This document shows, piece by piece, positions 5,230-54,000 of a stretch of 63,111 nt of DNA. The notes under the pieces were generated by a model. The model saw only the letters and a program-made list of their open reading frames with translations. It was not told the origin of the DNA and ran no database searches. A program made the position numbers and the translations under genes. Origin of the DNA: a phage. The stretch lies in NCBI GenBank assembly GCA_033178465.1, contig GCA_033178465.1_4726.1; one strand, 5' to 3'. Position 1 is the first letter of the stretch. Every line of letters starts with the position of its first letter.

Positions 5230-8200
5230 ATGAGTACAACTTATAAAACGGTCATTACCGATAAAGGCGCTGAACGTATTGCCGCAGCGCTACTTCCTGA
5301 CGGTGAGAAACTAAGAATCACACATTTTGCTGTTGGTGACGGAAACGGCTCTACACCAACCCCGACCGCCAGCCAAACAGCGCTCGTACACGAAGTTTAT
5401 CGTGGGGGAGTTTCTAACATCCACATTGATGTTGACGACACAACTCGGATTGTTGTTGAAGGCATTATTCCCACCAGTCAAGGTGGGTTCTGGGTGCGTG
5501 AGATCGGTCTGTACGACGATCAGGGTGAACTTGTCGTTGTCGGCAATGCGCCAGAAGGGTACAAACCACTGCCTTCCGAAGGGGCAGGACGTGTGTTAAA
5601 TTGTCAGGTATTTGTTGTCGTAAGCAATACCGATGCGATCGAATTGAAGGTTGTTAGTGACGCATTCTTACCAGACGCGACCACCGAGAAACGGGGATTA
5701 ACGATCCTTAGCAGCGAAACAAATAGTGACGACGAAACCAAAGCCGCAACATCAAAAGCAGTTAAAGCTGTGATGGATGTTGCGAAAGGAAAGTACACGG
5801 CTGTGGACGCTAGTACCACTCGTAAAGGGTTGGTTCAGTTAACCTCGGCGACGAACAGTGATAGTGAAGTACTCGCACTATCCGCGAAAGCCGGGAAAGT
5901 CCTAGCAACACAAATTAGCGCTAAAGCGGATCTTTCTAGTCCGGCATTTACCGATAAGCCGACAACACCAACCGCAGCCGAAGGCGATAAAAGTCAGCAG
6001 ATTGCGAATACCGAATTTGTGATGCGTGCTATCGCATCGCTGGTCGACTCGTCTCCAGAAGCGCTAAATACGCTTAATGAGCTGGCTCAAGCTTTAGGGA
6101 ACGATCCTAATTTCGCAACGACAGTAACCAATGCGTTGGCAGGTAAACAGCCGTTGAACGCGTTGCTGACAGCGTGGTCTAACCTAACAACAGATGCGAA
6201 TAAACTCCCTTATTTTACTGGACGGAACCAAATCGGACTAACTAACGTAACGTCAATAGGTCTGAATCTGCTAAGCAAAGGAAGCGTTGATGCGGTCTTA
6301 CTGTATCTTGGATTGACAGAAACCATAAAGGCAGCTAAGACAGCATTGCAGGCTGGGAATAACGGTAGTGATATCGTAGATAAAACCGCGTTTGCTAAAA
6401 CGATCGGGTTATCGCCAGAGACGTACCTGAAATATAACGGCGATATGGCGATAGATGCGGACCTTAATACCTTCGGTCCAGTCGAAGCGTCTATGGGTAT
6501 TTGGTCGAAAGGCACATCTACAAACGCAACGTTTGCGAAGAACTTCCCGGAAGAAAACGCAGTCGGTTATTTAGAAGTTTTTAGAGCGGGTAACTACGGC
6601 GGAAGTCAACGTTTCACTGTACGTAACGGTAACATCTATACACGTCATCTTACTGCTTCATGGAATGGGACAAACGGTCCTTGGTCAGAATGGCGTAATG
6701 TTGCCGGTTCCGCCAGAACGTTGAACGAACAAAATAATCTGAATGACTTAGGCGGTGAACCCGCATTGGGTGTTTGGAGAAACAGTACAAGTACGTTAGC
6801 AACAGCTGCGCTGAATTATCCTGAGGAAGGTTCCTTTGCCCAGGGTGTATTAGAGGTCCTCAAAGGTGGTAACTACAGTTACACACAACGCTACACTACT
6901 CGTAGAGGTAATGTGTACGTTCGTTGTCTACAAGCCACGTGGGATGCTTCAAACCCGCAATGGGAGGAATGGCGCTGCGTCGGCTGTCAATCTGTCAGCG
7001 CATATTTCGAAGGCGATCTCGACACGTTAACTTCACCTAACCGTTATAGCATTACCGACAAAGCGACAAACGTTCCTTTAATCGACGGCACTAAAATTAT
7101 CGGTATCTTGGACGTCAGTCGTCGTTTTGATAACATTAGCATCGAACAAAAATTCACCTCGTTTGGTTCTGGTAGTAAAACCACAGGTCGCGTTTTCACT
7201 CGTGTATTCTCCGGCCAATCGAACGGTAAATGGAGTGACTGGCGAGAGGTTTTCACATCGTATTCACTTCCGTTGGTTTTGGGTATCGGTGGGGCCGCAG
7301 CTAAAGTCGATTCGTTGGACTGGCAGACCTACGACTTTATTCCCGGCCAGATGTTAACGACGCCTTTGAACACCATGCAGAACATTCCGTCCGATATGGA
7401 TTGGGGTGTGATCGACGGTAACCTAGTCAACATCCTTGTCGGGCCGTCTGATGACACCGGTACCGGTCGGAGTATGTTGGTTTGGCGTAGCACGGTGTCT
7501 ACCGCGAATTATCGGTTCTTTGCTGTTCGTATCGCTGGCACCGCCGGTAATCGTACGATTACGACGCGTCAGATGCCTGTGCTTAACGCTGCTCATACCT
7601 GGGCAGAAAAACAGACATTCAATAAAGGCTTAGCTGGTGATTTAACGGGTAATGCCACTACAGCAACCAAGCTACAAACCGCCCGTAAAATCGGCGGTGT
7701 CGCGTTCGATGGCACAGCTGATATCGCGTTACCTGGCGTCAATGCAGCTGGTAATCAGAATACAACCGGTAACGCAGCAACCGCCACGAAATTGAAAACC
7801 GCTGTTACGATCGGTGGTGTGAGTTTCGATGGTTCGGCCAGTATCAGTCTACCGGGTGTTAACGCAGCGGGAAATCAAAGCACCAGCGGAAACGCAGGAA
7901 GCGCAACCAAACTTCAGACCGCGAGAACCATCGGGGGTGTTTCTTTTGATGGTACTGCGAACATTGATTTACCAGGCGTAAATAAAGCAGGTACGCAAAG
8001 CACATCAGGGAACGCTGCAACAGCGACAAAACTCCAGACAGCCAGAAAGATCAACGGTGTTGCTTTTGATGGTACGAAAGATATCAGCTTCACGATTAGC
8101 GCGATCGCATCACGAGGTCGTGTAACCGCATTAGCGAATGCTGTTCAAGGTACCAGTACCGGTGTCCAGATGTACGAAGCGTACAACAACGGATACCCAA

Positions 8201-9198
8201 CAGCGTACGGTAACGTTATGCATCTTAAAGGGGCCAGTGCCAGCGGTGAAGGTGAGATCCTTATTGGATGGTCTGGGACATCAGGGGCGCACGCGCCAGC
8301 GTATCTTCGTTCTCGTCGGGATGCGGCGGATGCGAACTGGTCGGAATGGGCACAGATCTACACCTCGAAAGATAGTATCCCTGGTGTGAACGCAACCGGA
8401 AACCAGAACACGACGGGTAACGCCGCTTCAGCGACAAGGCTTCAAACGGCAAGAACGATAGGTGGGGTATCATTCAACGGTACAGCAAACATCAACTTAC
8501 CTGGTGTTAATACCACAGGTAACCAAGATACCACAGGAAATGCGGCGACAGCGACCAAATTAAAGACAGCCCGGACAATAGGCGGAGTGTCTTTTGACGG
8601 CAGCGCTAATATTAACCTACCTGGCGTTAACACCGCTGGTAATCAGAATACTTCAGGAAACGCTGCAACAGCAACGAAGTTGCGGACTGCGCGTACAATC
8701 AACGGGAAAGCGTTCGATGGTTCGGCGAATATCACGTTAACTGCGGCGGATTTGTCTACGTATACGAAGTCAGAAATCGATACGAAATTAGGATATAAAG
8801 CATCCAGTAGTGATATCCCTAACATGGCGATTAAAACATCCACGCTTTCATCTGGTAGTATGAACATGTCGTTTAGTGACTTCATCAACTATCTGAAAGG
8901 TGAAGGCGCATTCAGGAAACGTTATTGGATCGGATTTGGTGATATGATGGGCGCGAACGCTGGGAGTACAGGAACAATCACCGGGTTCGGTGCTCTCCAG
9001 CTCGCTGGTACGATCATTGAAGTATTCAACTTCCCTAACGGGATGGATTATACGATACGTATTACTACGCAACATAAAGCAGATTATAGCGGTTTGACAA
9101 ATATGATTGTAGTGTATCATTATCGGAGCGCATTGTCGCCTGCCGGTCAATGGTTGAAGTTCGCTGGTGCGACAGGAGCGACAAACGAAGGGTATTAA
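5230..9198 (+). CDS. tail fibre protein (lambda Stf / P2 gpH-type N-terminal domain plus tandem fibre repeats)
   Basis: 1322-aa ORF; N-terminus (…ITHFAVGDGNG…ASQTALVHEVYRG…VEGIIP…GGFWVREIGLYDDQGELVVVGN.PE.YKP) matches the conserved N-terminal domain of P2 gpH/lambda Stf-like fibres from memory; two blocks of ~40-aa repeats (GNxxTATKLxTARxIGGVxFDGxAxIxLPGVN). Confidence 0.85.
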   Translation: MSTTYKTVITDKGAERIAAALLPDGEKLRITHFAVGDGNGSTPTPTASQTALVHEVYRGGVSNIHIDVDDTTRIVVEGIIPTSQGGFWVREIGLYDDQGELVVVGNAPEGYKPLPSEGAGRVLNCQVFVVVSNTDAIELKVVSDAFLPDATTEKRGLTILSSETNSDDETKAATSKAVKAVMDVAKGKYTAVDASTTRKGLVQLTSATNSDSEVLALSAKAGKVLATQISAKADLSSPAFTDKPTTPTAAEGDKSQQIANTEFVMRAIASLVDSSPEALNTLNELAQALGNDPNFATTVTNALAGKQPLNALLTAWSNLTTDANKLPYFTGRNQIGLTNVTSIGLNLLSKGSVDAVLLYLGLTETIKAAKTALQAGNNGSDIVDKTAFAKTIGLSPETYLKYNGDMAIDADLNTFGPVEASMGIWSKGTSTNATFAKNFPEENAVGYLEVFRAGNYGGSQRFTVRNGNIYTRHLTASWNGTNGPWSEWRNVAGSARTLNEQNNLNDLGGEPALGVWRNSTSTLATAALNYPEEGSFAQGVLEVLKGGNYSYTQRYTTRRGNVYVRCLQATWDASNPQWEEWRCVGCQSVSAYFEGDLDTLTSPNRYSITDKATNVPLIDGTKIIGILDVSRRFDNISIEQKFTSFGSGSKTTGRVFTRVFSGQSNGKWSDWREVFTSYSLPLVLGIGGAAAKVDSLDWQTYDFIPGQMLTTPLNTMQNIPSDMDWGVIDGNLVNILVGPSDDTGTGRSMLVWRSTVSTANYRFFAVRIAGTAGNRTITTRQMPVLNAAHTWAEKQTFNKGLAGDLTGNATTATKLQTARKIGGVAFDGTADIALPGVNAAGNQNTTGNAATATKLKTAVTIGGVSFDGSASISLPGVNAAGNQSTSGNAGSATKLQTARTIGGVSFDGTANIDLPGVNKAGTQSTSGNAATATKLQTARKINGVAFDGTKDISFTISAIASRGRVTALANAVQGTSTGVQMYEAYNNGYPTAYGNVMHLKGASASGEGEILIGWSGTSGAHAPAYLRSRRDAADANWSEWAQIYTSKDSIPGVNATGNQNTTGNAASATRLQTARTIGGVSFNGTANINLPGVNTTGNQDTTGNAATATKLKTARTIGGVSFDGSANINLPGVNTAGNQNTSGNAATATKLRTARTINGKAFDGSANITLTAADLSTYTKSEIDTKLGYKASSSDIPNMAIKTSTLSSGSMNMSFSDFINYLKGEGAFRKRYWIGFGDMMGANAGSTGTITGFGALQLAGTIIEVFNFPNGMDYTIRITTQHKADYSGLTNMIVVYHYRSALSPAGQWLKFAGATGATNEGY
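7648..8100 (+). repeat. tandem ~120-bp (40-aa) tail-fibre repeats, ~4 copies, inside fibre gene
   Basis: Protein repeats GNATTATKLQTARKIGGVAFDGTADIALPGVNAAGNQNTT / GNAATATKLKTAVTIGGVSFDGSASISLPGVNAAGNQSTS / … read directly from translation. Confidence 0.8.
8416..8740 (+). repeat. second block of ~3 tandem 40-aa tail-fibre repeats inside fibre gene
   Basis: GNAASATRLQTARTIGGVSFNGTANINLPGVNTTGNQDTT / GNAATATKLKTARTIGGVSFDGSANINLPGVNTAGNQNTS / GNAATATKLRTARTINGKAFDGSANITL. Confidence 0.8.
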
Positions 9199-9252
9199 TA
9201 TCTTGCGATTATCCTTATGGAAGTCACTTCCGTTAACACACAAGGAAATCTA

Positions 9253-9759
9253 ATGATGAAAAAACTCTGCGCGATCGTTCTTGGTATGTTGATGGTGCTT
9301 TCTCTGGGTGGGTGCGCTACGCTGGAAGGCTTACCGAACCTGGATAAAGACCTGACACAACTGGTGGGGTTAAAACCTGTTGAGAAGAACAGCAATCTCG
9401 CTGTGTATTCCTGCTGGGGAGCAACCCAGGAATTCGAACATTGGAAACCGAAGTTTTCAACCACGGAAATCTGGAACGATAAGGTTCTGGTTGTGGATGA
9501 AGGTAGTCAGTTTACCGTCGACTCTCCGGTAACCGTTTTCGAGTCCACACAGTTGTACACCACGGTGAAAGACTACGTTGATCTGGGGTTCAATACCGCA
9601 ACCAGCGAACGCTTCTACCGTATGAATAAACCAACCCTGTCTTACGCAAGTTCAACCCTGAACTCGAACGGTGATGGTGTTGGTATGGTCTTCTTCAATT
9701 GTTCTACCGATCGTGCGCTGATCGCCGACCCGGATTCCGTTGAGGTTATCAGTAAGTAA
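9253..9759 (+). CDS. putative lipoprotein (signal peptide with lipobox LGGC); candidate receptor-masking/superinfection-exclusion protein
   Basis: ATG at 9253 with AAGGA RBS; N-terminus MMKKLCAIVLGMLMVLSLGGC = basic n-region, hydrophobic core, Cys after LGG; located directly downstream of tail fibre gene. Confidence 0.65.
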   Translation: MMKKLCAIVLGMLMVLSLGGCATLEGLPNLDKDLTQLVGLKPVEKNSNLAVYSCWGATQEFEHWKPKFSTTEIWNDKVLVVDEGSQFTVDSPVTVFESTQLYTTVKDYVDLGFNTATSERFYRMNKPTLSYASSTLNSNGDGVGMVFFNCSTDRALIADPDSVEVISK

Positions 9760-9768
9760 TTAAGTATG

Positions 9769-9796
9769 CTCCTCCAACCCGTAAGGGAAGGAGGAG
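9769..9796 (+). terminator. conserved palindromic hairpin element (family A), followed by CTATGG
   Basis: CTCCTCCAACCC-GTAA-GGGAAGGAGGAG between lipoprotein gene and 9853 gene. Confidence 0.55.
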
Positions 9797-9852
9797 CTGC
9801 TATGGCGTCATCGTATGAAATTTCCTTTTTGAGAATAGAAACGAGGTAGAAA

Positions 9853-10509
9853 ATGGCAATAGCGCGAACTATAGGGTTCACGTCTAGAAGGCACGCTGAC
9901 GGCAAATTAGGGTGGCGTGATCCCGGCTGGAGAGTGGCCTATAATAACAGCATTGTCGCCCATCTTTTTGACTTGCGTTCTTTTGCGCGAGAAGTCGTCG
10001 CTAGACACCCAAACGCGTACTTAGAATATGTCTCTGGGCATGGCGATGCTGAAGAAATTCAACACGGACAATGGAATAACGGGGTATACGTACCAAATAT
10101 ACCTCTCCAAGGATGGAGTGGCGATGTCGCCGCGTACGACTATAAACTATTCTGGAACGCGTCAGCTAACGGCTCAATGGGTAATATTGACTGTGATAGC
10201 CGTAAGCATACATGGAAACCATGGTCGGCGGGTAATCTCTCGGCACCTATTAGAATGTCCGACTTACAATCACATCCGTTCTTTGTTATTATTGAATTTA
10301 AGTATCGATCAACAACGCACTACGTTAAGCTTGGTTCGTTCCAGATAGAATCGTTCAATATATACGAAATGGTACCAGGTTTTCCGGGATGGGTAGGTAA
10401 CGTGATGAGTCAAAACGGTAGGGCAGTGCCTGGCTGGGCTTCGCAGCTTGTTTCAGGGAACTGGTTGACGTCGTTTGTTGGTGGTAAGCGATATCTAAAT
10501 TCAATTTAA
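9853..10509 (+). CDS. hypothetical protein, paralogue of 10612-11253 (putative fibre accessory protein)
   Basis: 218-aa ORF; C-terminal 45 aa nearly identical to neighbour (PGFPGWVGNVMSQNGRAVPGWASQLVSGNWLTSFVGGKRY) while N-termini diverge. Confidence 0.7.
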   Translation: MAIARTIGFTSRRHADGKLGWRDPGWRVAYNNSIVAHLFDLRSFAREVVARHPNAYLEYVSGHGDAEEIQHGQWNNGVYVPNIPLQGWSGDVAAYDYKLFWNASANGSMGNIDCDSRKHTWKPWSAGNLSAPIRMSDLQSHPFFVIIEFKYRSTTHYVKLGSFQIESFNIYEMVPGFPGWVGNVMSQNGRAVPGWASQLVSGNWLTSFVGGKRYLNSI

Positions 10510-10611
10510 GAGAAGCTACTGTTTTATCAGTGGGTGTTTATGTATGTATTACCTGACGACAACACGCATCCGATATCCGCCACCTCAACCACCAACGTAT
10601 AGGACAACACC

Positions 10612-11253
10612 ATGGCTATAAGCACAGATAAAACACCGAATAGCGGCGCACGCTTACAAGATGGTAACGCATGGCACGATAACACCGACGCTTACTACAA
10701 CACCATGATCTGCTGGACGTTCGACGTTCGTGATATTGCGACACAAGTCCAGAACAATTATCCTGGTACCAAATACCTGGAATCGATAAACGGATATGTG
10801 AACGCAAAAGAAAAGAAACACGGACAAGGTACCAACCCTGTTATCATTCCGAATATTCCACCACAGCAATTTACCTCACTTAAGAACATGAGTCCGTCGC
10901 TATGGTGGAACGCGGGCGGACGCGGTAGCAACGGTAACGTTAACTGTGACTCGCGCAGTCATACCTGGCAGCCGTGGAACGCGAATGCGAACTGGTCAGC
11001 CGTCCCTGTGACCGAATTGTTATCGTCTCCTTTACCCGTTGCGTTTGTCTTTAAAGCGGTTTCTGGTAAACATAACGTTGCGGTATGGAACTGTCATCTC
11101 TACAATTTAACTTTCTATTACATCCGTCCCGGATTCCCTGGTTGGTGTGGTAACATCATGAGCCAGAATGGTAGAGCCGTTCCAGGCTGGGTATCACAAC
11201 TCGTCAGCGGGAACTGGTTAACTTCCTTCGTGGGCGGTAAGCAGTACATCTAA
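10612..11253 (+). CDS. hypothetical protein, paralogue of 9853-10509 (putative fibre accessory protein)
   Basis: 213-aa ORF; C-terminus PGFPGWCGNIMSQNGRAVPGWVSQLVSGNWLTSFVGGKQY; shared central motif N.DCDSR.HTW.PW. Confidence 0.7.
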   Translation: MAISTDKTPNSGARLQDGNAWHDNTDAYYNTMICWTFDVRDIATQVQNNYPGTKYLESINGYVNAKEKKHGQGTNPVIIPNIPPQQFTSLKNMSPSLWWNAGGRGSNGNVNCDSRSHTWQPWNANANWSAVPVTELLSSPLPVAFVFKAVSGKHNVAVWNCHLYNLTFYYIRPGFPGWCGNIMSQNGRAVPGWVSQLVSGNWLTSFVGGKQYI

Positions 11254-13910: not shown

Positions 13911-14480
13911 ATGAAAGTAAAAGACCTTTACAAAATAAAACCGCAAACGATGGGTACCGCGAGCTTGGTTCTCGTTGACGGGCGCTCCCTGGTTGATGCG
14001 CTTAATAGTTACGACAACATCAACATTCCTGTCGGTCAACGATTAAGCATACAGCGGTTAAAAAAGCATCTCGATGATGCTGGATTAGCTCCTGACACAC
14101 GAAAAGAAATCGAAGAATTGGAAATCGATGAAACGAGTTCAGTTGAAGGTAATCTTCCTGATCTTACCGCTATTCATGATAACGCGAATCAACCCGCTGT
14201 CCAAAACTTCGTTGTTGTCATTGCGACAATCTCGCTCTTTTTAGTGACGATAGTATACACCGGTATCTGGGCATGGCTTGCGTTCATCGCGCAAACCAAA
14301 CCGAGCATTAACCATTTGTTCGTTCTGGCAGCTTGCTGGACGATGGTGATCTGGAAATCACAGGGCATCATCAGTCGCGAACGTCGTGATTTGATGTCGG
14401 TTATCGTCGGCGATGCGCCAAGTAAAAATCGCTTTTGGGATAATATCGAAAGCCTGGGTAAAGTGATGAAGAATCGTTGA
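13911..14480 (+). CDS. small membrane protein with two predicted transmembrane helices
   Basis: 189-aa ORF, GGAGGTGG RBS; hydrophobic stretches VVVIATISLFLVTIVYTGIWAWLAFIA and LFVLAACWTMVIW. Confidence 0.6.
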   Translation: MKVKDLYKIKPQTMGTASLVLVDGRSLVDALNSYDNINIPVGQRLSIQRLKKHLDDAGLAPDTRKEIEELEIDETSSVEGNLPDLTAIHDNANQPAVQNFVVVIATISLFLVTIVYTGIWAWLAFIAQTKPSINHLFVLAACWTMVIWKSQGIISRERRDLMSVIVGDAPSKNRFWDNIESLGKVMKNR

Positions 14481-51054: not shown

Positions 51055-54000
51055 ATGAAAAAATCGTTAGCTGATCTGATGCGTAAGTCGCATCTTAACC
51101 TGGAAAGCGGCGATACACCTATCGAAGTCAAAGCAACGCTTTCTACTGATAAAGAAGAGCAAGTGATCGCATTACCTACAGCGGCACGGCCAGACAGCAT
51201 CGAAGCGACGATCGAATCAGATACGCTCGAGGAAGGGGCTACCGTTGATGACGCTGTTCGTGTGATTCGTAGCACGGGTGAAAACGGCGAGGATGTCGTA
51301 CGTGCTGTTATTGTTACCCGTCCTATTGATGGTAGTTTGCGAATCCGTTTCACACCGAGCAACGGTGGTGTGACCATGGAAGACGGTAACGATGTTCAAC
51401 CGTTCGTTCTGATCGCGGTACCGACCGCACCTGGCGAAGAGCCGAAGAACCCGTATCCGGCAAACGCACCGACCGAGACACCGGCACCGAAAGTGACCAA
51501 TGACCCGACCGTTAACGCTGACCGTGACAACCTGAAGAACAAGATTCAGGATGCGGCTAACGCCATCGATCCAACCAATCCGGCACAAATCGAACAGGCT
51601 GCGCAACCGGCAGAAACCACCGAAGGTGTTAAAGGCAATGTCGTCGAACCGGAAAAAGCAGAACCTGTTGCTGAAACAGCAGCTGAGGTAGCCGAGGCGA
51701 CGCCAGAAACCAAAACGACGGAAGAACCCATCAAAGTCACCGTGATTAAACGTGTCGTAGAGAAAGTAGAAAAGGTTGAAGATACCGTCGCTAACGAACA
51801 ACCTGTTGTCGACGCTAATGACGGTAATACCGGTGAGCAGAAAGCTGAAGCAGTTGCTCAGGAAACAGAACTGCAAGGCGATGTTGAGGTCGATAGCGCC
51901 GACGAAACGTCCACCGAGGATAGCACCACCGAACCCGCGTCCGAAGAACCTACCAACACCGACGCTGATGCTGATGCTACCGACACCACAACCACCGAAG
52001 GTGACGACGATGAAGACGACGAAAACGAAGAAGATGAAGATCTGAAACAAGAGTCGTTCGAAATTCATCAAGAGCTGGAAGCCCGCGGCGTATTAGATGT
52101 TCCTGTTGTTGAACAGCGCGCATCTGTTATTCTCGGCGAAGGTGAAACAGATGTAACCGTCATTGAAACAGAACAACCGTACATTCCTGGCACCATGGTG
52201 GTACGTCGTCTTGATGGGGATAAGAGTGTTATTGTTCGCCGTACTCGTTACGCTGAACGCTTTAACGCTGATGGTCAGGGTGAAGCGATCGCCATTGTCG
52301 ACCCTACTCTGCAAGGCGAACTGAAAATGGAATTCCGTCCGGCTGAAGGTCCGATGGAAAGCTTCGAGATTCGTCCTGAAATCAAAGACGAATACATCAT
52401 GGAATCGTACAAACAGCTTGATGTCGCACTGAACAGCGATCTCAATCTGGAAGACGGGGAAAAGCAACCGGGTCGCTTTAAACAGATTCTGAAATCGGTT
52501 TACGAAGCGGTCGCGAAGTTCTTAAAAGCCCTCGTGGCGCGTTTGAAAAATCTCTTTGGTGTTAATAAGAAAAAAATCGAAGAGAAGGCCGACAAACTGA
52601 CCAAAGAACAACGCACAGCACCAGTGATGAAACTGCTTCCTCCGCCGAGCGATACCAAGAAGGTTGACGTTGAGTGGAATAAACTGGATACGCTGCTCGC
52701 AAACGACTCGAAATCTGTCGATAAGATCGTAAACGCCGTCAAAGACAGTAAACGTATTGCGGACGCGTCGAAGAAATATTTCGATGAGTTAAAGAACAGC
52801 AAGGAAGGCGAGCAAGTTCAGCATCCAGCTGAAATGAAAGCAGCTCTTGGAATGGCGGGCGTGAAAGCGTTCGGATATTCTATCGACGACGCGTTAAACG
52901 GCATTCGTGAGTTCCGTGACGAACTTAGCGCCATGAAACAGCAGGATGATGCTGTGCCGTCCAACGTTAGCGTTGAAATGCTGATCGATGCATCAACAAA
53001 ACTGTTTGACGAAGACCTCCTGAAAGCAGCTACTCAACTTCAGGAGACGGCTGAGCAGTTACTCCGCGATCTGGACAAAGTGGAAAACGAATCAGGCGCA
53101 CGCTACGTCACGCAGCGCACACGTACCCTGATGAACTTTGCAACAACTGCATGCACCGTTTACGGATTCGCCGCAAAAGAACTGGGCGATGTTACCGTTC
53201 GTATACTCACCGCTGTCGCAGCGGCTGATAACGGTGATCTCAAACAGGAAGAGTATCAGGATGTTGCCGGTGAAAACGATCCGGTTGTCACCATCGAGAC
53301 ACTGGAAGGCGATGCTGGTACTCGTGTTGTTGCTGAGGCGGAAATCGTTGATGATCCTGCTGTGGTGGAATTCGTTGAGCGTGCTGAAGAAGCGCAGCGA
53401 AATCTGGCTATCGGTCGCCACGCGGTGAACGCGGTGGAAGGTATTCTGGTAGCGGCACGTGAGATCGGTCCTGATAACTTCCAGGGTAACGTCGAAGCTA
53501 CCGAAATTGCGATGGAAGGATTCATGGATACCGTTAAGAGCGCGGTCAACCGTATCGGTAACTGGATTGAAACCAACCACCGTTACTATACCGCCGCTAC
53601 GGCTCCATGGGATAAGCTGTTCGCCGAAACACAGCAAGCGTTGGCCAAAGCGCGTCGCGGTAACCCAGCAGCAGAACGGATTATTCTGAAACGTTTCATC
53701 CGTCATCTTACCATCGGTGGTGAACCTGTCACCGATGTGAAGAAGCTCATCGCTGCGTTGGGTGAAATCAAAATGCTTGGTAACATGACGCGTGAATTAA
53801 TCGTTGCTATCAATCGTGAGCTCAGCGACGTGCGGAAGAGCAACCAGTCCGAAACATCCGCTGGATCGGTTGTTGGTCTGAAGCGTATTCCTATTCAGAA
53901 ATGGGATAAGCTCATGGTCGCTACCGTACAACCGTGGAAAGACAGCGATCGTAAAGGTGTTGGGTCCAAAGCGTATCTTGGTGAAACGCACATCGTGAAG

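What the first reader, a model, noticed from the sequence alone, without database searches (positions are those of the whole stretch)
9253..9759. Lipoprotein gene immediately downstream of the tail fibre gene: candidate receptor-blocking superinfection-exclusion/progeny-protection factor
The ORF has a textbook lipoprotein signal (MMKKLCAIVLGMLMVLSLGG-C). Established knowledge: phage T5 encodes lipoprotein Llp next to its receptor-binding protein gene, and Llp masks the FhuA receptor. The same gene order (fibre gene then lipoprotein, 54 nt apart) is seen here. An o-spanin is the main alternative, but no holin/endolysin/i-spanin is adjacent and 168 aa is long for an o-spanin.
Basis: partly seen in the sequence, partly recalled or inferred. 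Interest (0 to 1): 0.55.

Follow-up and report, generated by a model that had tools for sequence, protein, structure and literature searches.

The report
Late, abundant jumbo-phage outer-membrane lipoprotein
This is a real lipoprotein gene of a Goslar-like jumbo phage of E. coli, conserved in the host-recognition gene cluster and made in large amounts, but it is not matched to the neighbouring tail fibre as phage T5's receptor-blocking Llp is, and its role at the cell envelope is untested.

Summary
ORF 9253-9759 (+) encodes a 168-aa protein with a canonical lipoprotein signal (LSLGG|C), 54 nt after the tail-fibre gene. The window is a relative of E. coli nucleus-forming jumbo phage Goslar, and the ORF is the orthologue of Goslar gp088 (98.8% identical).

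The family is small and confined to enterobacterial chimalliviruses. Every member keeps the lipobox Cys and two further Cys. The predicted fold is a generic small beta-barrel on a roughly 25-residue tether. It shows no relation to Llp, Rtp45 or spanins.

The Llp analogy is only partly supported. The gene always lies among receptor-binding genes. However, an identical protein (dN/dS 0-0.06) follows at least four unrelated fibre C-termini, so it is not paired with the fibre's receptor.

The gene looks like a stand-alone late unit, with a TATG promoter-like motif and a strong hairpin. A 2026 preprint detects gp088 at about 740 copies per virion in Goslar preparations that also contain OmpA, OmpC and OmpF. 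The SPN3US homologue is absent from that phage's virion proteome.

My best guess is a generic envelope-level exclusion or progeny-protection factor (about 0.35). Rivals are outer-membrane disruption at lysis, true virion association, and peptidoglycan-hydrolase inhibition. Interest is moderate.

The parts
5230..9198 (+). Tail-fibre gene (1322 aa) immediately upstream. The N-terminus and repeats are shared with Goslar gp090. The C-terminal roughly 150 aa (about 8737-9198) is a swapped module.
   Evidence: Pfam Phage_tail_fib and Phage_fiber_2. BLASTP against Goslar gp090 aligns only up to residue 1175. The tip is 64% identical to the phage Cyrano fibre. Unrelated tips occur in sister phages.
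9216..9219 (+). TATG motif, promoter-like for the phage non-virion RNA polymerase (late type), at the start of the conserved leader TATGGAAGTCACTTCC...AACACA. Homology to Goslar resumes here after the fibre/chaperone swap.
   Evidence: Alignment with Goslar. The same leader occurs in L007 and L008, and TATGAC lies 39-55 nt upstream in SPN3US, Kwan and ChrisDB. TATG is enriched in Goslar upstream intergenic DNA. In phiKZ the late promoter is TATG with G as the start site (PMC4666361). Promoter function here is inferred.
9242..9246 (+). Ribosome-binding site AAGGA, 6 nt before ATG 9253 and 9 nt before ATG 9256.
   Evidence: Read directly from the sequence.
9253..9759 (+). Lipoprotein gene (168 aa including the signal peptide; stop at 9757-9759). 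Orthologue of Goslar gp088 and member of PHROG 9559.
9253..9315 (+). Signal peptide MMKKLCAIVLGMLMVLSLGG plus lipobox Cys21 (codon 9313-9315). The +2 residue is Ala, not Asp, which predicts outer-membrane sorting.
   Evidence: Cys21 is invariant and L18 and G20 are conserved in at least 90% of 30 homologues. The distant members also have a lipobox. The Lol +2 rule is established knowledge.
9316..9387 (+). Low-confidence tether (about residues 22-45) between the lipid anchor and the barrel.
   Evidence: AlphaFold2 pLDDT is 50-64 for residues 11-40 (the signal-peptide h-region, the lipobox and the first half of the tether). This region is variable and carries indels in the alignment.
9388..9708 (+). 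All-beta barrel domain (about residues 46-152) with invariant Cys54 (9412-9414) and Cys150 (9700-9702) and the motif R-[YF]-Y-[RK].
   Evidence: AlphaFold2 pLDDT is about 84-95 over residues 41-150, with 10 strands. Invariant columns are listed.
9763..9801 (+). GC-rich hairpin directly after the stop codon, terminator-like. It is followed by TATG at 9801-9804 and 9814-9817, promoter-like for the downstream genes.
   Evidence: Minimum free energy -25.4 kcal/mol, z = -5.2. It is conserved in Goslar with one loop change. It has the same 'hairpin + TATG' layout as at least 10 other Goslar intergenic sites.
9853..11253 (+). Two tandem paralogous genes (218 and 213 aa) downstream. They are context only and not part of the lipoprotein unit.
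   Evidence: Goslar has only one copy (gp087) plus a 14-codon remnant of the other.

Best explanation
The ORF encodes a Sec-exported, lipid-modified protein. [quoted passage not shown] A disulfide-bonded beta-barrel of about 110 residues hangs into the periplasm on a tether of about 25 residues.

The gene is a stand-alone, moron-like transcription unit: a late-type TATG promoter-like motif, the gene, then a strong hairpin. It is lodged in the receptor-binding gene cluster of enterobacterial nucleus-forming jumbo phages and is produced in very large amounts late in infection.

Its sequence is frozen while the neighbouring fibres are swapped freely. It therefore most likely acts on something conserved: a conserved outer-membrane or periplasmic component of Escherichia, Salmonella and Shigella, or the tail-penetration step.

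My best functional guess is that it conditions the envelope of the infected and lysing cell, so that phages, including the phage's own progeny, do not adsorb productively or inject. That makes it a generic exclusion or progeny-protection factor rather than a blocker of the adjacent fibre's receptor.

Shown: the lipoprotein signature, conservation, purifying selection, gene context, lack of co-variation with the fibre, and protein-level expression of the orthologue.

Inferred: lipidation, outer-membrane location, late timing, and the exclusion function.
For: - Lipobox and conserved cysteines: the lipobox Cys and two further Cys are invariant across the family.
- Uniqueness: it is the only ORF matching the strict lipobox pattern in Goslar; the looser scan's other hits look like non-coding frames.
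- Structure: a confident beta-barrel core behind a disordered tether.
- Context: it always lies among DUF7941 and fibre receptor-binding genes, across four lineages and despite rearrangements.
- Own transcription unit: it is alone on its strand in SPN3US, Kwan and ChrisDB, and it has hairpins and TATG motifs in all lineages. TATG is the phiKZ late promoter.
- Abundance of the orthologue: about 737 copies per virion-equivalent, with 77.84% coverage. That equals 130 of 167 aa. It fits residues 32-167 minus FYR and MNK, which would leave the signal peptide and the lipidated N-terminal peptide uncovered.
- Co-purifying host material: the same preparation contains many OmpA, OmpC and OmpF peptides plus non-virion phage proteins.
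- Not a conserved virion part: gp088 is absent from the cryoEM model, and the SPN3US homologue gp159 is absent from the 86-protein virion proteome.
- Selection: dN/dS is 0-0.06, with identical protein behind at least four unrelated fibre tips.
- Precedent: phage outer-membrane lipoproteins next to receptor-binding genes that exclude phages and protect progeny include Llp and Rtp45.
Against: - No experiment links any family member to exclusion.
- Known SE lipoproteins are about 6 kDa, unrelated in sequence and fold, and in T5 expressed early. This protein is about 16 kDa mature and appears to be late.
- The Goslar fibres and DUF7941 proteins look glycan-directed. A periplasm-facing lipoprotein could not obviously mask glycan receptors.
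- Goslar virion preparations still carry abundant outer-membrane proteins. If progeny protection exists, it is not complete.
- The very high copy number in purified virions could instead mean real virion association.
- The late-promoter assignment rests on a 4-nt motif and on analogy with phiKZ.
Confidence: 0.37

Rival explanations
1. Outer-membrane disruption at lysis. The lipoprotein would be a non-canonical functional analogue of an o-spanin, weakening the outer membrane or its tethering to the cell wall at the end of infection.
For: - It appears to be late and is abundant.
- It is the only plausible lipobox ORF in Goslar, and no canonical spanin pair is recognisable there.
- In SPN3US, Kwan and ChrisDB it lies 1-3 kb from the GH108 endolysin.
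- Some homologues carry Pro/Ala-rich C-terminal tails.
Against: - No i-spanin-like gene (N-terminal TMD plus coiled coil) is adjacent or overlapping in any lineage.
- It is a globular disulfide-bonded barrel, not a short Pro-rich peptide.
- SPN3US has a separate adjacent TMD-protein plus lipoprotein pair with spanin architecture.
- In Goslar-like phages the gene is 12 kb from the endolysin and holin-like cluster.
- The family is missing from most chimalliviruses.
Confidence: 0.15
2. A genuine peripheral virion component, for example one bound to the DUF7941 filament cloud or the fibres. The N-terminal hydrophobic segment would then not serve as an export signal, or the protein would attach to virions after lysis.
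For: It is one of the most abundant unmodelled proteins in CsCl-purified Goslar (about 737 copies). That is 6-fold above chimallin, and similar to the DUF7941 protein gp22 at about 577 copies. The gene is embedded among virion genes.
Against: - The lipobox is invariant, and two conserved Cys suit an oxidising periplasm.
- It is not in the 28-protein atomic model.
- The SPN3US homologue was not detected among 86 virion proteins or in mutant particles, although its neighbour gp160 is highly abundant.
- The preparation contains OmpA, OmpC and OmpF at comparable per-peptide intensities, and also DnaK (AhpC tentatively, by accession), ThyA, chimallin and PhuZ.
- Its copy number is 17-fold that of the fibre protein gp090.
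Confidence: 0.15
3. A periplasmic peptidoglycan-hydrolase inhibitor anchored under the outer membrane, working like T4 Spackle or MliC/PliC. It would block the tail lysozyme of superinfecting phages (resistance to lysis from without), or restrain the phage's own secreted endolysin until lysis.
For: - Goslar encodes a signal-peptide endolysin (gp098) and a tail protein with a lysozyme domain (gp204).
- A conserved enzyme target would explain the frozen sequence.
Against: - Foldseek against the PDB finds nothing significant.
- There is no Pfam match to MliC/PliC families.
- No test of binding was possible.
Confidence: 0.1
4. One reading: an Llp-type blocker of the very receptor used by the adjacent tail fibre.
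For: The gene order of fibre then lipoprotein is as in T5 oad/llp, and the gene is in the receptor-binding cluster.
Against: - Identical lipoprotein follows at least four unrelated fibre C-termini. In relatives it follows quite different receptor-binding proteins, of the DUF7941-LRR and DUF285 types.
- It is unrelated to Llp or Rtp45 in size, sequence and fold.
- The closest fibre tip, in phage Cyrano, has no such lipoprotein next to it.
Confidence: 0.05

Closest known systems
Phage T5 Llp (and the related Cor lipoproteins of T1, phi80 and N15)
   Same: It is a phage-encoded lipoprotein with a canonical lipobox. [quoted passage not shown] It contains a disulfide pair, and its gene lies next to receptor-binding genes.
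   Different: Llp is 61 aa mature, is expressed early, and binds FhuA, the receptor of its partner pb5. This protein is about 148 aa mature with a beta-barrel, has no detectable sequence or fold similarity, has a late-type promoter-like motif, and does not co-vary with the adjacent fibre.
Phage Rtp Rtp45 / Oekolampad SE lipoprotein (LptDE binders)
   Same: It is a periplasmic outer-membrane lipoprotein of a virulent coliphage. Rtp45 shows that an SE lipoprotein can target an essential, highly conserved outer-membrane machine, which would fit the frozen sequence seen here.
   Different: Rtp45 is about 6 kDa and is matched to an LptD-binding receptor-binding protein. No similarity was detected here, and no evidence on the target exists.
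Two-component spanin outer-membrane subunit (lambda Rz1, T4 PseT.2)
   Same: It is a late phage lipoprotein destined for the outer membrane.
   Different: o-spanins are short, Pro-rich and largely unstructured, and they are encoded inside or next to an i-spanin gene. This protein is a folded barrel with no i-spanin neighbour. SPN3US has a separate pair with spanin architecture.
T4 Spackle and MliC/PliC/PhiA lysozyme inhibitors
   Same: They are periplasmic or outer-membrane-anchored small proteins that neutralise peptidoglycan hydrolases. MliC and PhiA are 8-stranded beta-barrels, and MliC is a lipoprotein.
Moron-type surface genes next to tail-fibre genes (lambda bor and lom, TraT-like lipoproteins)
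   Same: It is an independent promoter-gene-terminator unit inserted in the tail-fibre region and encodes an envelope protein.
   Different: Those are expressed from prophages by host RNA polymerase. This one is in a strictly lytic nucleus-forming phage and appears to use the phage's own late promoter.

Membership tests
Bacterial-type lipoprotein (Lgt/LspA/Lnt substrate) | N-terminal signal peptide with a positive n-region and a hydrophobic h-region, ending in the lipobox [LVI][ASTVI][GAS]-C. | tested here: met
   The sequence is MMKK-LCAIVLGMLMVLS-LGG-C. The Cys is invariant and the -3 Leu and -1 Gly are conserved in at least 90% of 30 homologues. The Cys is also present in the distant members.
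Bacterial-type lipoprotein (Lgt/LspA/Lnt substrate) | Actual signal cleavage and acylation of the Cys. | tested here: inconclusive
   Published MS coverage of the orthologue is 130 of 167 aa. This fits no coverage of residues 1-31. No carbamidomethyl-CATLEGLPNLDK peptide appears in the stored part of the peptide table, although the adjacent peptide is present. The stored table is truncated, and lipidated peptides were not searched for.
Outer-membrane (Lol-sorted) lipoprotein | No inner-membrane retention signal (Asp at +2). | tested here: met
   The +2 residue is Ala. In the aligned family it is Ala, Ser, Val, Thr, Lys or Gln, and never Asp. The rule itself is established knowledge for Enterobacteriaceae.
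Llp / Cor / Rtp45 superinfection-exclusion lipoproteins | Homology in sequence or fold to a characterised member. | tested here: not met
Llp / Cor / Rtp45 superinfection-exclusion lipoproteins | Small size (about 6-8 kDa mature). | tested here: not met
   The mature protein here is about 148 aa, or about 16 kDa. Llp is 61 aa and Rtp45 about 6 kDa.
Llp / Cor / Rtp45 superinfection-exclusion lipoproteins | Gene linked to, and co-varying with, the receptor-binding protein whose receptor it blocks. | tested here: not met
   Linkage to the receptor-binding cluster is met. However, identical protein follows at least four unrelated fibre tips and different receptor-binding proteins.
Llp / Cor / Rtp45 superinfection-exclusion lipoproteins | Binds an outer-membrane receptor and abolishes phage adsorption. 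| not testable with these tools
   This needs expression and adsorption assays, or structural work.
Two-component spanin, o-spanin subunit | Gene embedded in, overlapping or directly adjacent to an i-spanin gene (N-terminal TMD plus a periplasmic coiled coil). | tested here: not met
   The neighbours are fibre or DUF7941 genes and soluble proteins in every lineage. Goslar proteins with an N-terminal TMD are distant and not coiled-coil-like.
Two-component spanin, o-spanin subunit | Short, Pro-rich, mostly unstructured periplasmic part. | tested here: not met
   The model shows a confident 10-strand beta domain.
PHROG 9559 (unknown function) | Significant match to the family HMM. | tested here: met
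   E = 1.5e-21 over residues 1-153.
MliC/PliC-type lysozyme inhibitors | Family HMM match with its conserved loops, and inhibition of lysozyme. | tested here: inconclusive
Virion structural protein of chimalliviruses | Reproducible presence in purified virions and a place in the particle structure. | tested here: inconclusive
   It is abundant in the Goslar virion MS but absent from the atomic model, and the preparation holds host outer-membrane proteins. The SPN3US homologue is absent from the virion proteome.

The most novel reading that the evidence does not exclude
The family could be a new kind of envelope-remodelling factor specific to enterobacterial nucleus-forming jumbo phages. It would be a hyper-abundant late outer-membrane lipoprotein acting on a conserved, possibly essential, envelope machine. 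One version is that it keeps progeny, with their micrometre-long adhesive filament clouds, from being trapped on debris or wasted on infected cells. Another is that it replaces the missing spanins in Goslar-like phages. It would work by a mechanism unrelated to Llp, Cor, Rtp45 or Rz1.
Probability: 0.2. Interest if true: 0.7.

Novelty: new variant of a known kind. Interest (0 to 1): 0.45.

Why it matters
Nucleus-forming jumbo phages are intensively studied and are candidates for therapy. How they deal with the outer membrane is largely unknown, whether at exclusion, at release or at lysis.

This gene's orthologue is among the most abundant unexplained proteins in purified Goslar virions. The preprint's main text never mentions that it has a lipoprotein signal. 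Recognising this changes how that mass-spectrometry result should be read, because outer-membrane carry-over becomes an alternative to a new virion component. It also gives a simple, testable candidate for an envelope-level function.

If the protein targets a conserved outer-membrane machine, it would also be a useful probe of that machine.

The finding is also a caution. 'Lipoprotein next to a fibre gene' does not by itself imply an Llp-type receptor blocker.

Tried and rejected
- Database searches: Pfam, NCBIfam and PADLOC gave no hit for the protein or its homologues.
- 'DUF2846' label: one GenBank record uses it, but it was not reproduced for the ten members scanned. The labelled record itself was not among them.
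- Family size: the exhaustive HMM search over 1.84 billion representatives showed a tiny family, and two of the hits look like scrambled sequences and were ignored. No bacterial family was recognised, but the context of the weakest hits (E 5e-5 to 7e-4) was not examined.
- Membrane protein gp085 (window 13911-14480) as a partner: rejected, because its phage distribution does not overlap that of the lipoprotein.
- Early-promoter hypothesis: the enriched Goslar motif TATATTAC is not upstream of the gene.
- Search for an i-spanin in Goslar: N-terminal-TMD proteins gp002, gp003, gp094 and gp182 are not adjacent and have no spanin features or PHROG annotation.
- Goslar transcriptome: none found in the NAR 2024 ChmC paper, which used PhiPA3.
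- Quantitative comparison of gp088 with OmpA and OmpC in the published MS: only partly possible, because the stored peptide table is truncated.

Full report
**1. What is there**

The ORF at 9253-9759 (+) is exactly as described. It encodes 168 aa starting MMKKLCAIVLGMLMVLSLGG-C, 54 nt after the stop of a 1322-aa tail-fibre gene, with an AAGGA ribosome-binding site 6 nt upstream.

The window is a relative of Escherichia phage vB_EcoM_Goslar, a 237-kb nucleus-forming jumbo phage. The ORF is the orthologue of Goslar gp088, at 98.8% identity. Goslar has a single ATG that corresponds to the second ATG here.

The exact protein is already in public data as a 'hypothetical protein [Escherichia coli]' on a 237,753-bp contig. 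Its 90%-identity cluster has 258 members. They come from E. coli, Salmonella and Shigella isolate assemblies, on contigs of about 236-244 kb.

**2. It is a real lipoprotein family**

Word-indexed and profile searches found about 30 clusters. Where long contigs are available they are about 240 kb, and all named members are enterobacterial chimalliviruses: Goslar-like phages, SPN3US-like Seoulvirus, and the Erwinia genera Wellingtonvirus and Machinavirus and their relatives.

An exhaustive HMM scan of 1.84 billion representative proteins added only a handful more. No bacterial family was recognised, though the weakest hits were not examined. The protein matches PHROG 9559, of unknown function.

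In the 30-sequence alignment the lipobox Cys is invariant and the -3 Leu and -1 Gly are conserved in at least 90% of sequences. Two further Cys (C54, C150) are invariant, and there is an R-[YF]-Y-[RK] motif. The most distant members keep the lipobox Cys and both further Cys. The residue after the lipid-modified Cys is never Asp, so by the established Lol rule the protein should go to the outer membrane.

A strict scan of the whole Goslar genome finds gp088 as the only lipobox ORF. A looser scan adds four hits, three with TTG starts, that look like non-coding frames.

Among Goslar-like phages the gene shows 12-20 nucleotide differences with 0-2 amino-acid changes, giving dN/dS of 0-0.06.

**3. 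Structure**

AlphaFold2 on the family alignment gives a confident all-beta domain. Block-mean pLDDT is 84-95 over residues 41-150, with 10 strands. It sits behind a low-confidence tether of about 25 residues.

- Foldseek against the PDB finds nothing significant.
- The profile search of PDB sequences gives noise.
- BFVD returns the protein's own family plus other uncharacterised phage lipoproteins.

The protein is therefore unrelated to solved exclusion lipoproteins and is not spanin-like.

**4. Context, and the test of the Llp analogy**

The gene always lies among host-recognition genes.

- *Goslar:* it follows the fibre gp090 and a Caudo_TAP chaperone gp089.
- *The window:* the chaperone is absent and the last roughly 150 fibre residues are a different module. 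That module is 64% identical to the phage Cyrano fibre, which has no such lipoprotein beside it.
- *Two 49%-identical relatives:* the gene sits after a 1375-aa receptor-binding protein, or between two DUF7941 receptor-binding proteins.
- *SPN3US, Kwan and ChrisDB:* it sits next to small DUF7941 genes and 1-3 kb from a GH108 endolysin.

The decisive result concerns contigs that carry exactly the window's protein. Their fibres are 967, 1345 or 1486 aa with Peptidase_S74 ends, or 1322 aa of the window type. An 87%-identical copy follows a 1024-aa fibre plus a DUF4376 chaperone.

The C-terminal 150 residues of these fibre classes are unrelated to one another. The lipoprotein genes are 96-100% identical in nucleotides, or 81% for the 87% copy.

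A receptor blocker paired with its fibre, as Llp is with pb5, should co-vary with the tip. This one does not. Homology between the window and Goslar resumes about 36 nt upstream of the start codon. The lipoprotein unit therefore forms the conserved right-hand border of a fibre-swapping hotspot.

**5. A stand-alone, probably late, transcription unit**

In SPN3US, Kwan and ChrisDB the gene is alone on its strand between oppositely oriented genes. It is followed by strong hairpins and preceded by TATGAC 39-55 nt upstream.

In the Goslar-like lineages it is co-oriented with its neighbours. It is preceded by a conserved leader, TATGG(G)AA..CTTCC..AACAC, and followed by a hairpin (window 9763-9801, -25.4 kcal/mol, z = -5.2). 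That hairpin is followed at once by another TATG.

'GC hairpin - TT - TATGC' recurs at 10 or more Goslar intergenic sites, and TATG is enriched in upstream intergenic DNA. In phiKZ the late promoters of the non-virion RNA polymerase are TATG, with G as the start site (PMC4666361). The early-like enriched motif TATATTAC is absent upstream of the gene.

Late timing is therefore inferred, not shown. I found no Goslar transcriptome.

**6. Protein-level evidence from the literature**

A 2026 preprint (doi 10.64898/2026.04.21.720040) reports label-free MS of PEG- and CsCl-purified Goslar.

- gp088 is the fourth most abundant unmodelled protein of unknown function. It is estimated at about 737 copies per virion (range 491-1158), from 20 peptides at 77.84% coverage. 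It is not in the atomic model.
- The preprint's main text never mentions its lipoprotein signal.
- The coverage equals 130 of 167 residues. That is what remains if residues 1-31 (the signal peptide plus the N-terminal tryptic peptide carrying the Cys) and the tiny peptides FYR and MNK are missing. No unmodified CATLEGLPNLDK appears in the stored part of the table, although the next peptide does. This is my inference.
- The same preparation contains many OmpA, OmpC and OmpF peptides. One OmpA cleavage site sums to about 2.7e5 area, against about 5.9e5 for the best gp088 peptide. It also contains chimallin, PhuZ and thymidylate synthase.
- The fibre protein gp090 is at only about 43 copies.

In SPN3US the homologue is gp159 in the original numbering. 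It is absent from the 86-protein virion proteome and from mutant-particle proteomes. Its DUF7941 neighbour gp160 is highly abundant there.

The simplest reading is an abundant outer-membrane lipoprotein of infected cells that rides along with membrane fragments. Real virion association is not excluded.

**7. The spanin alternative**

No lineage has an i-spanin-like neighbour. Goslar's lysis-like cluster comprises the signal-peptide SleB-type endolysin gp098 and the holin-like gp100 and gp101. It lies 12-14 kb upstream, just off the window.

SPN3US carries an adjacent pair at 180,017-180,976. It consists of a protein with an N-terminal TMD and a 159-aa lipoprotein, with typical 'separated spanin' architecture. 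That pair is unannotated and has no homologue in Goslar. SPN3US has both that pair and the gp159 family member, so an o-spanin role for this family is unlikely. Goslar, however, has no other plausible lipoprotein candidate.

**8. Mechanism and probabilities**

*Shown:* a conserved lipoprotein signature, a folded periplasmic-type domain, strong purifying selection, residence in the receptor-binding cluster, independence from the fibre tip, and high protein abundance of the orthologue.

*Inferred:* acylation, outer-membrane location, late expression, and function.

| Reading | Probability |
|---|---|
| Generic envelope-level exclusion or progeny protection, acting on a conserved host envelope component or on tail penetration | about 0.35-0.4 |
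| Outer-membrane disruption at lysis | about 0.15 |
| Genuine virion association | about 0.15 |
| Peptidoglycan-hydrolase inhibition in the manner of Spackle or MliC | about 0.1 |

The remainder is for functions not considered.

**9. Comparison with known systems**

The protein works, at most, 'like' the Llp/Cor/Rtp45 class. It fails the tests for membership on homology, size and co-variation with the receptor-binding protein.

It is best filed as a new variant of the known kind 'phage outer-membrane lipoprotein encoded beside receptor-binding genes'. Interest is moderate. There is no surprising mechanism yet. There is, however, a clear and cheap experiment, and a direct bearing on how a recent virion proteome should be interpreted.

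Noticed in passing
SPN3US NC_027402 180017-180976 (L017:30017-30976): An unannotated adjacent gene pair. The first encodes a 156-aa protein with an N-terminal TMD and a Pro-rich C-half. The second starts 10 nt later and encodes a 159-aa lipoprotein (LLLTG|C). The layout matches a 'separated' two-component spanin. PHROGs 8719 and 8165 are of unknown function, and there is no homologue in Goslar or the window.
   Followed up: partly
Goslar NC_048170 110.5-113.3 kb (just beyond the window's 5' end): A probable lysis cluster. It holds the SleB-type endolysin gp098 with an N-terminal signal or SAR-like segment. It also holds gp100 (3 TMDs), gp101 (2 TMDs), and two Sec-signal proteins, gp103 and gp104. 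No canonical spanin pair is recognisable anywhere in Goslar.
   Followed up: partly
window 9763-9817, and at least 10 intergenic sites in Goslar: A recurrent 'GC-rich hairpin + TT + TATG(C)' element. It looks like a coupled terminator and late promoter and separates many genes. A second enriched upstream motif, TATATTAC(T), resembles an early-promoter consensus.
   Followed up: partly
window 9853-10509 and 10612-11253: Tandem paralogues of 218 and 213 aa with no family hits. Goslar has one copy (gp087, about 19 copies per virion in the MS) plus a 14-codon remnant of the other, so this is a recent duplication or deletion.
   Followed up: partly
window 8737-9198, and loci L019-L025: The fibre gene is a recombination hotspot. 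At least four unrelated C-terminal modules occur: the window type, a Gly-rich type with Caudo_TAP, Peptidase_S74 types of three lengths, and a type with a DUF4376 chaperone. The upstream 1198-aa tail protein can be replaced by a 584-aa DUF7941-DUF285 protein, and the 870-aa DUF7941 TIM-barrel protein downstream can be absent.
   Followed up: yes
whole window (public contigs of about 236-244 kb): Goslar-like jumbo-phage genomes turn up as near-complete contigs in many E. coli, Salmonella and Shigella isolate assemblies; the lipoprotein's 90%-identity cluster has 258 members. This suggests carrier-state or contaminating phage in surveillance sequencing.
   Followed up: no
window 13911-14480: A 189-aa membrane protein (orthologue of Goslar gp085) with a cytoplasmic N-domain and about two TMDs. 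It is conserved directly downstream of the lipoprotein in relatives L007 and L008. Its wider distribution (PhiEaH1, PCH45, Serratia jumbo phages) does not match that of the lipoprotein.
   Followed up: partly
window 51217-52071 (-): A long reverse-strand ORF with a lipobox-like start (MNFERLLFQIFIFFVFVVFIVVTFGGC...). Its low-complexity Gly/Val-rich sequence suggests a non-coding frame opposite a real gene, and the equivalent ORF in Goslar is similar.
   Followed up: no
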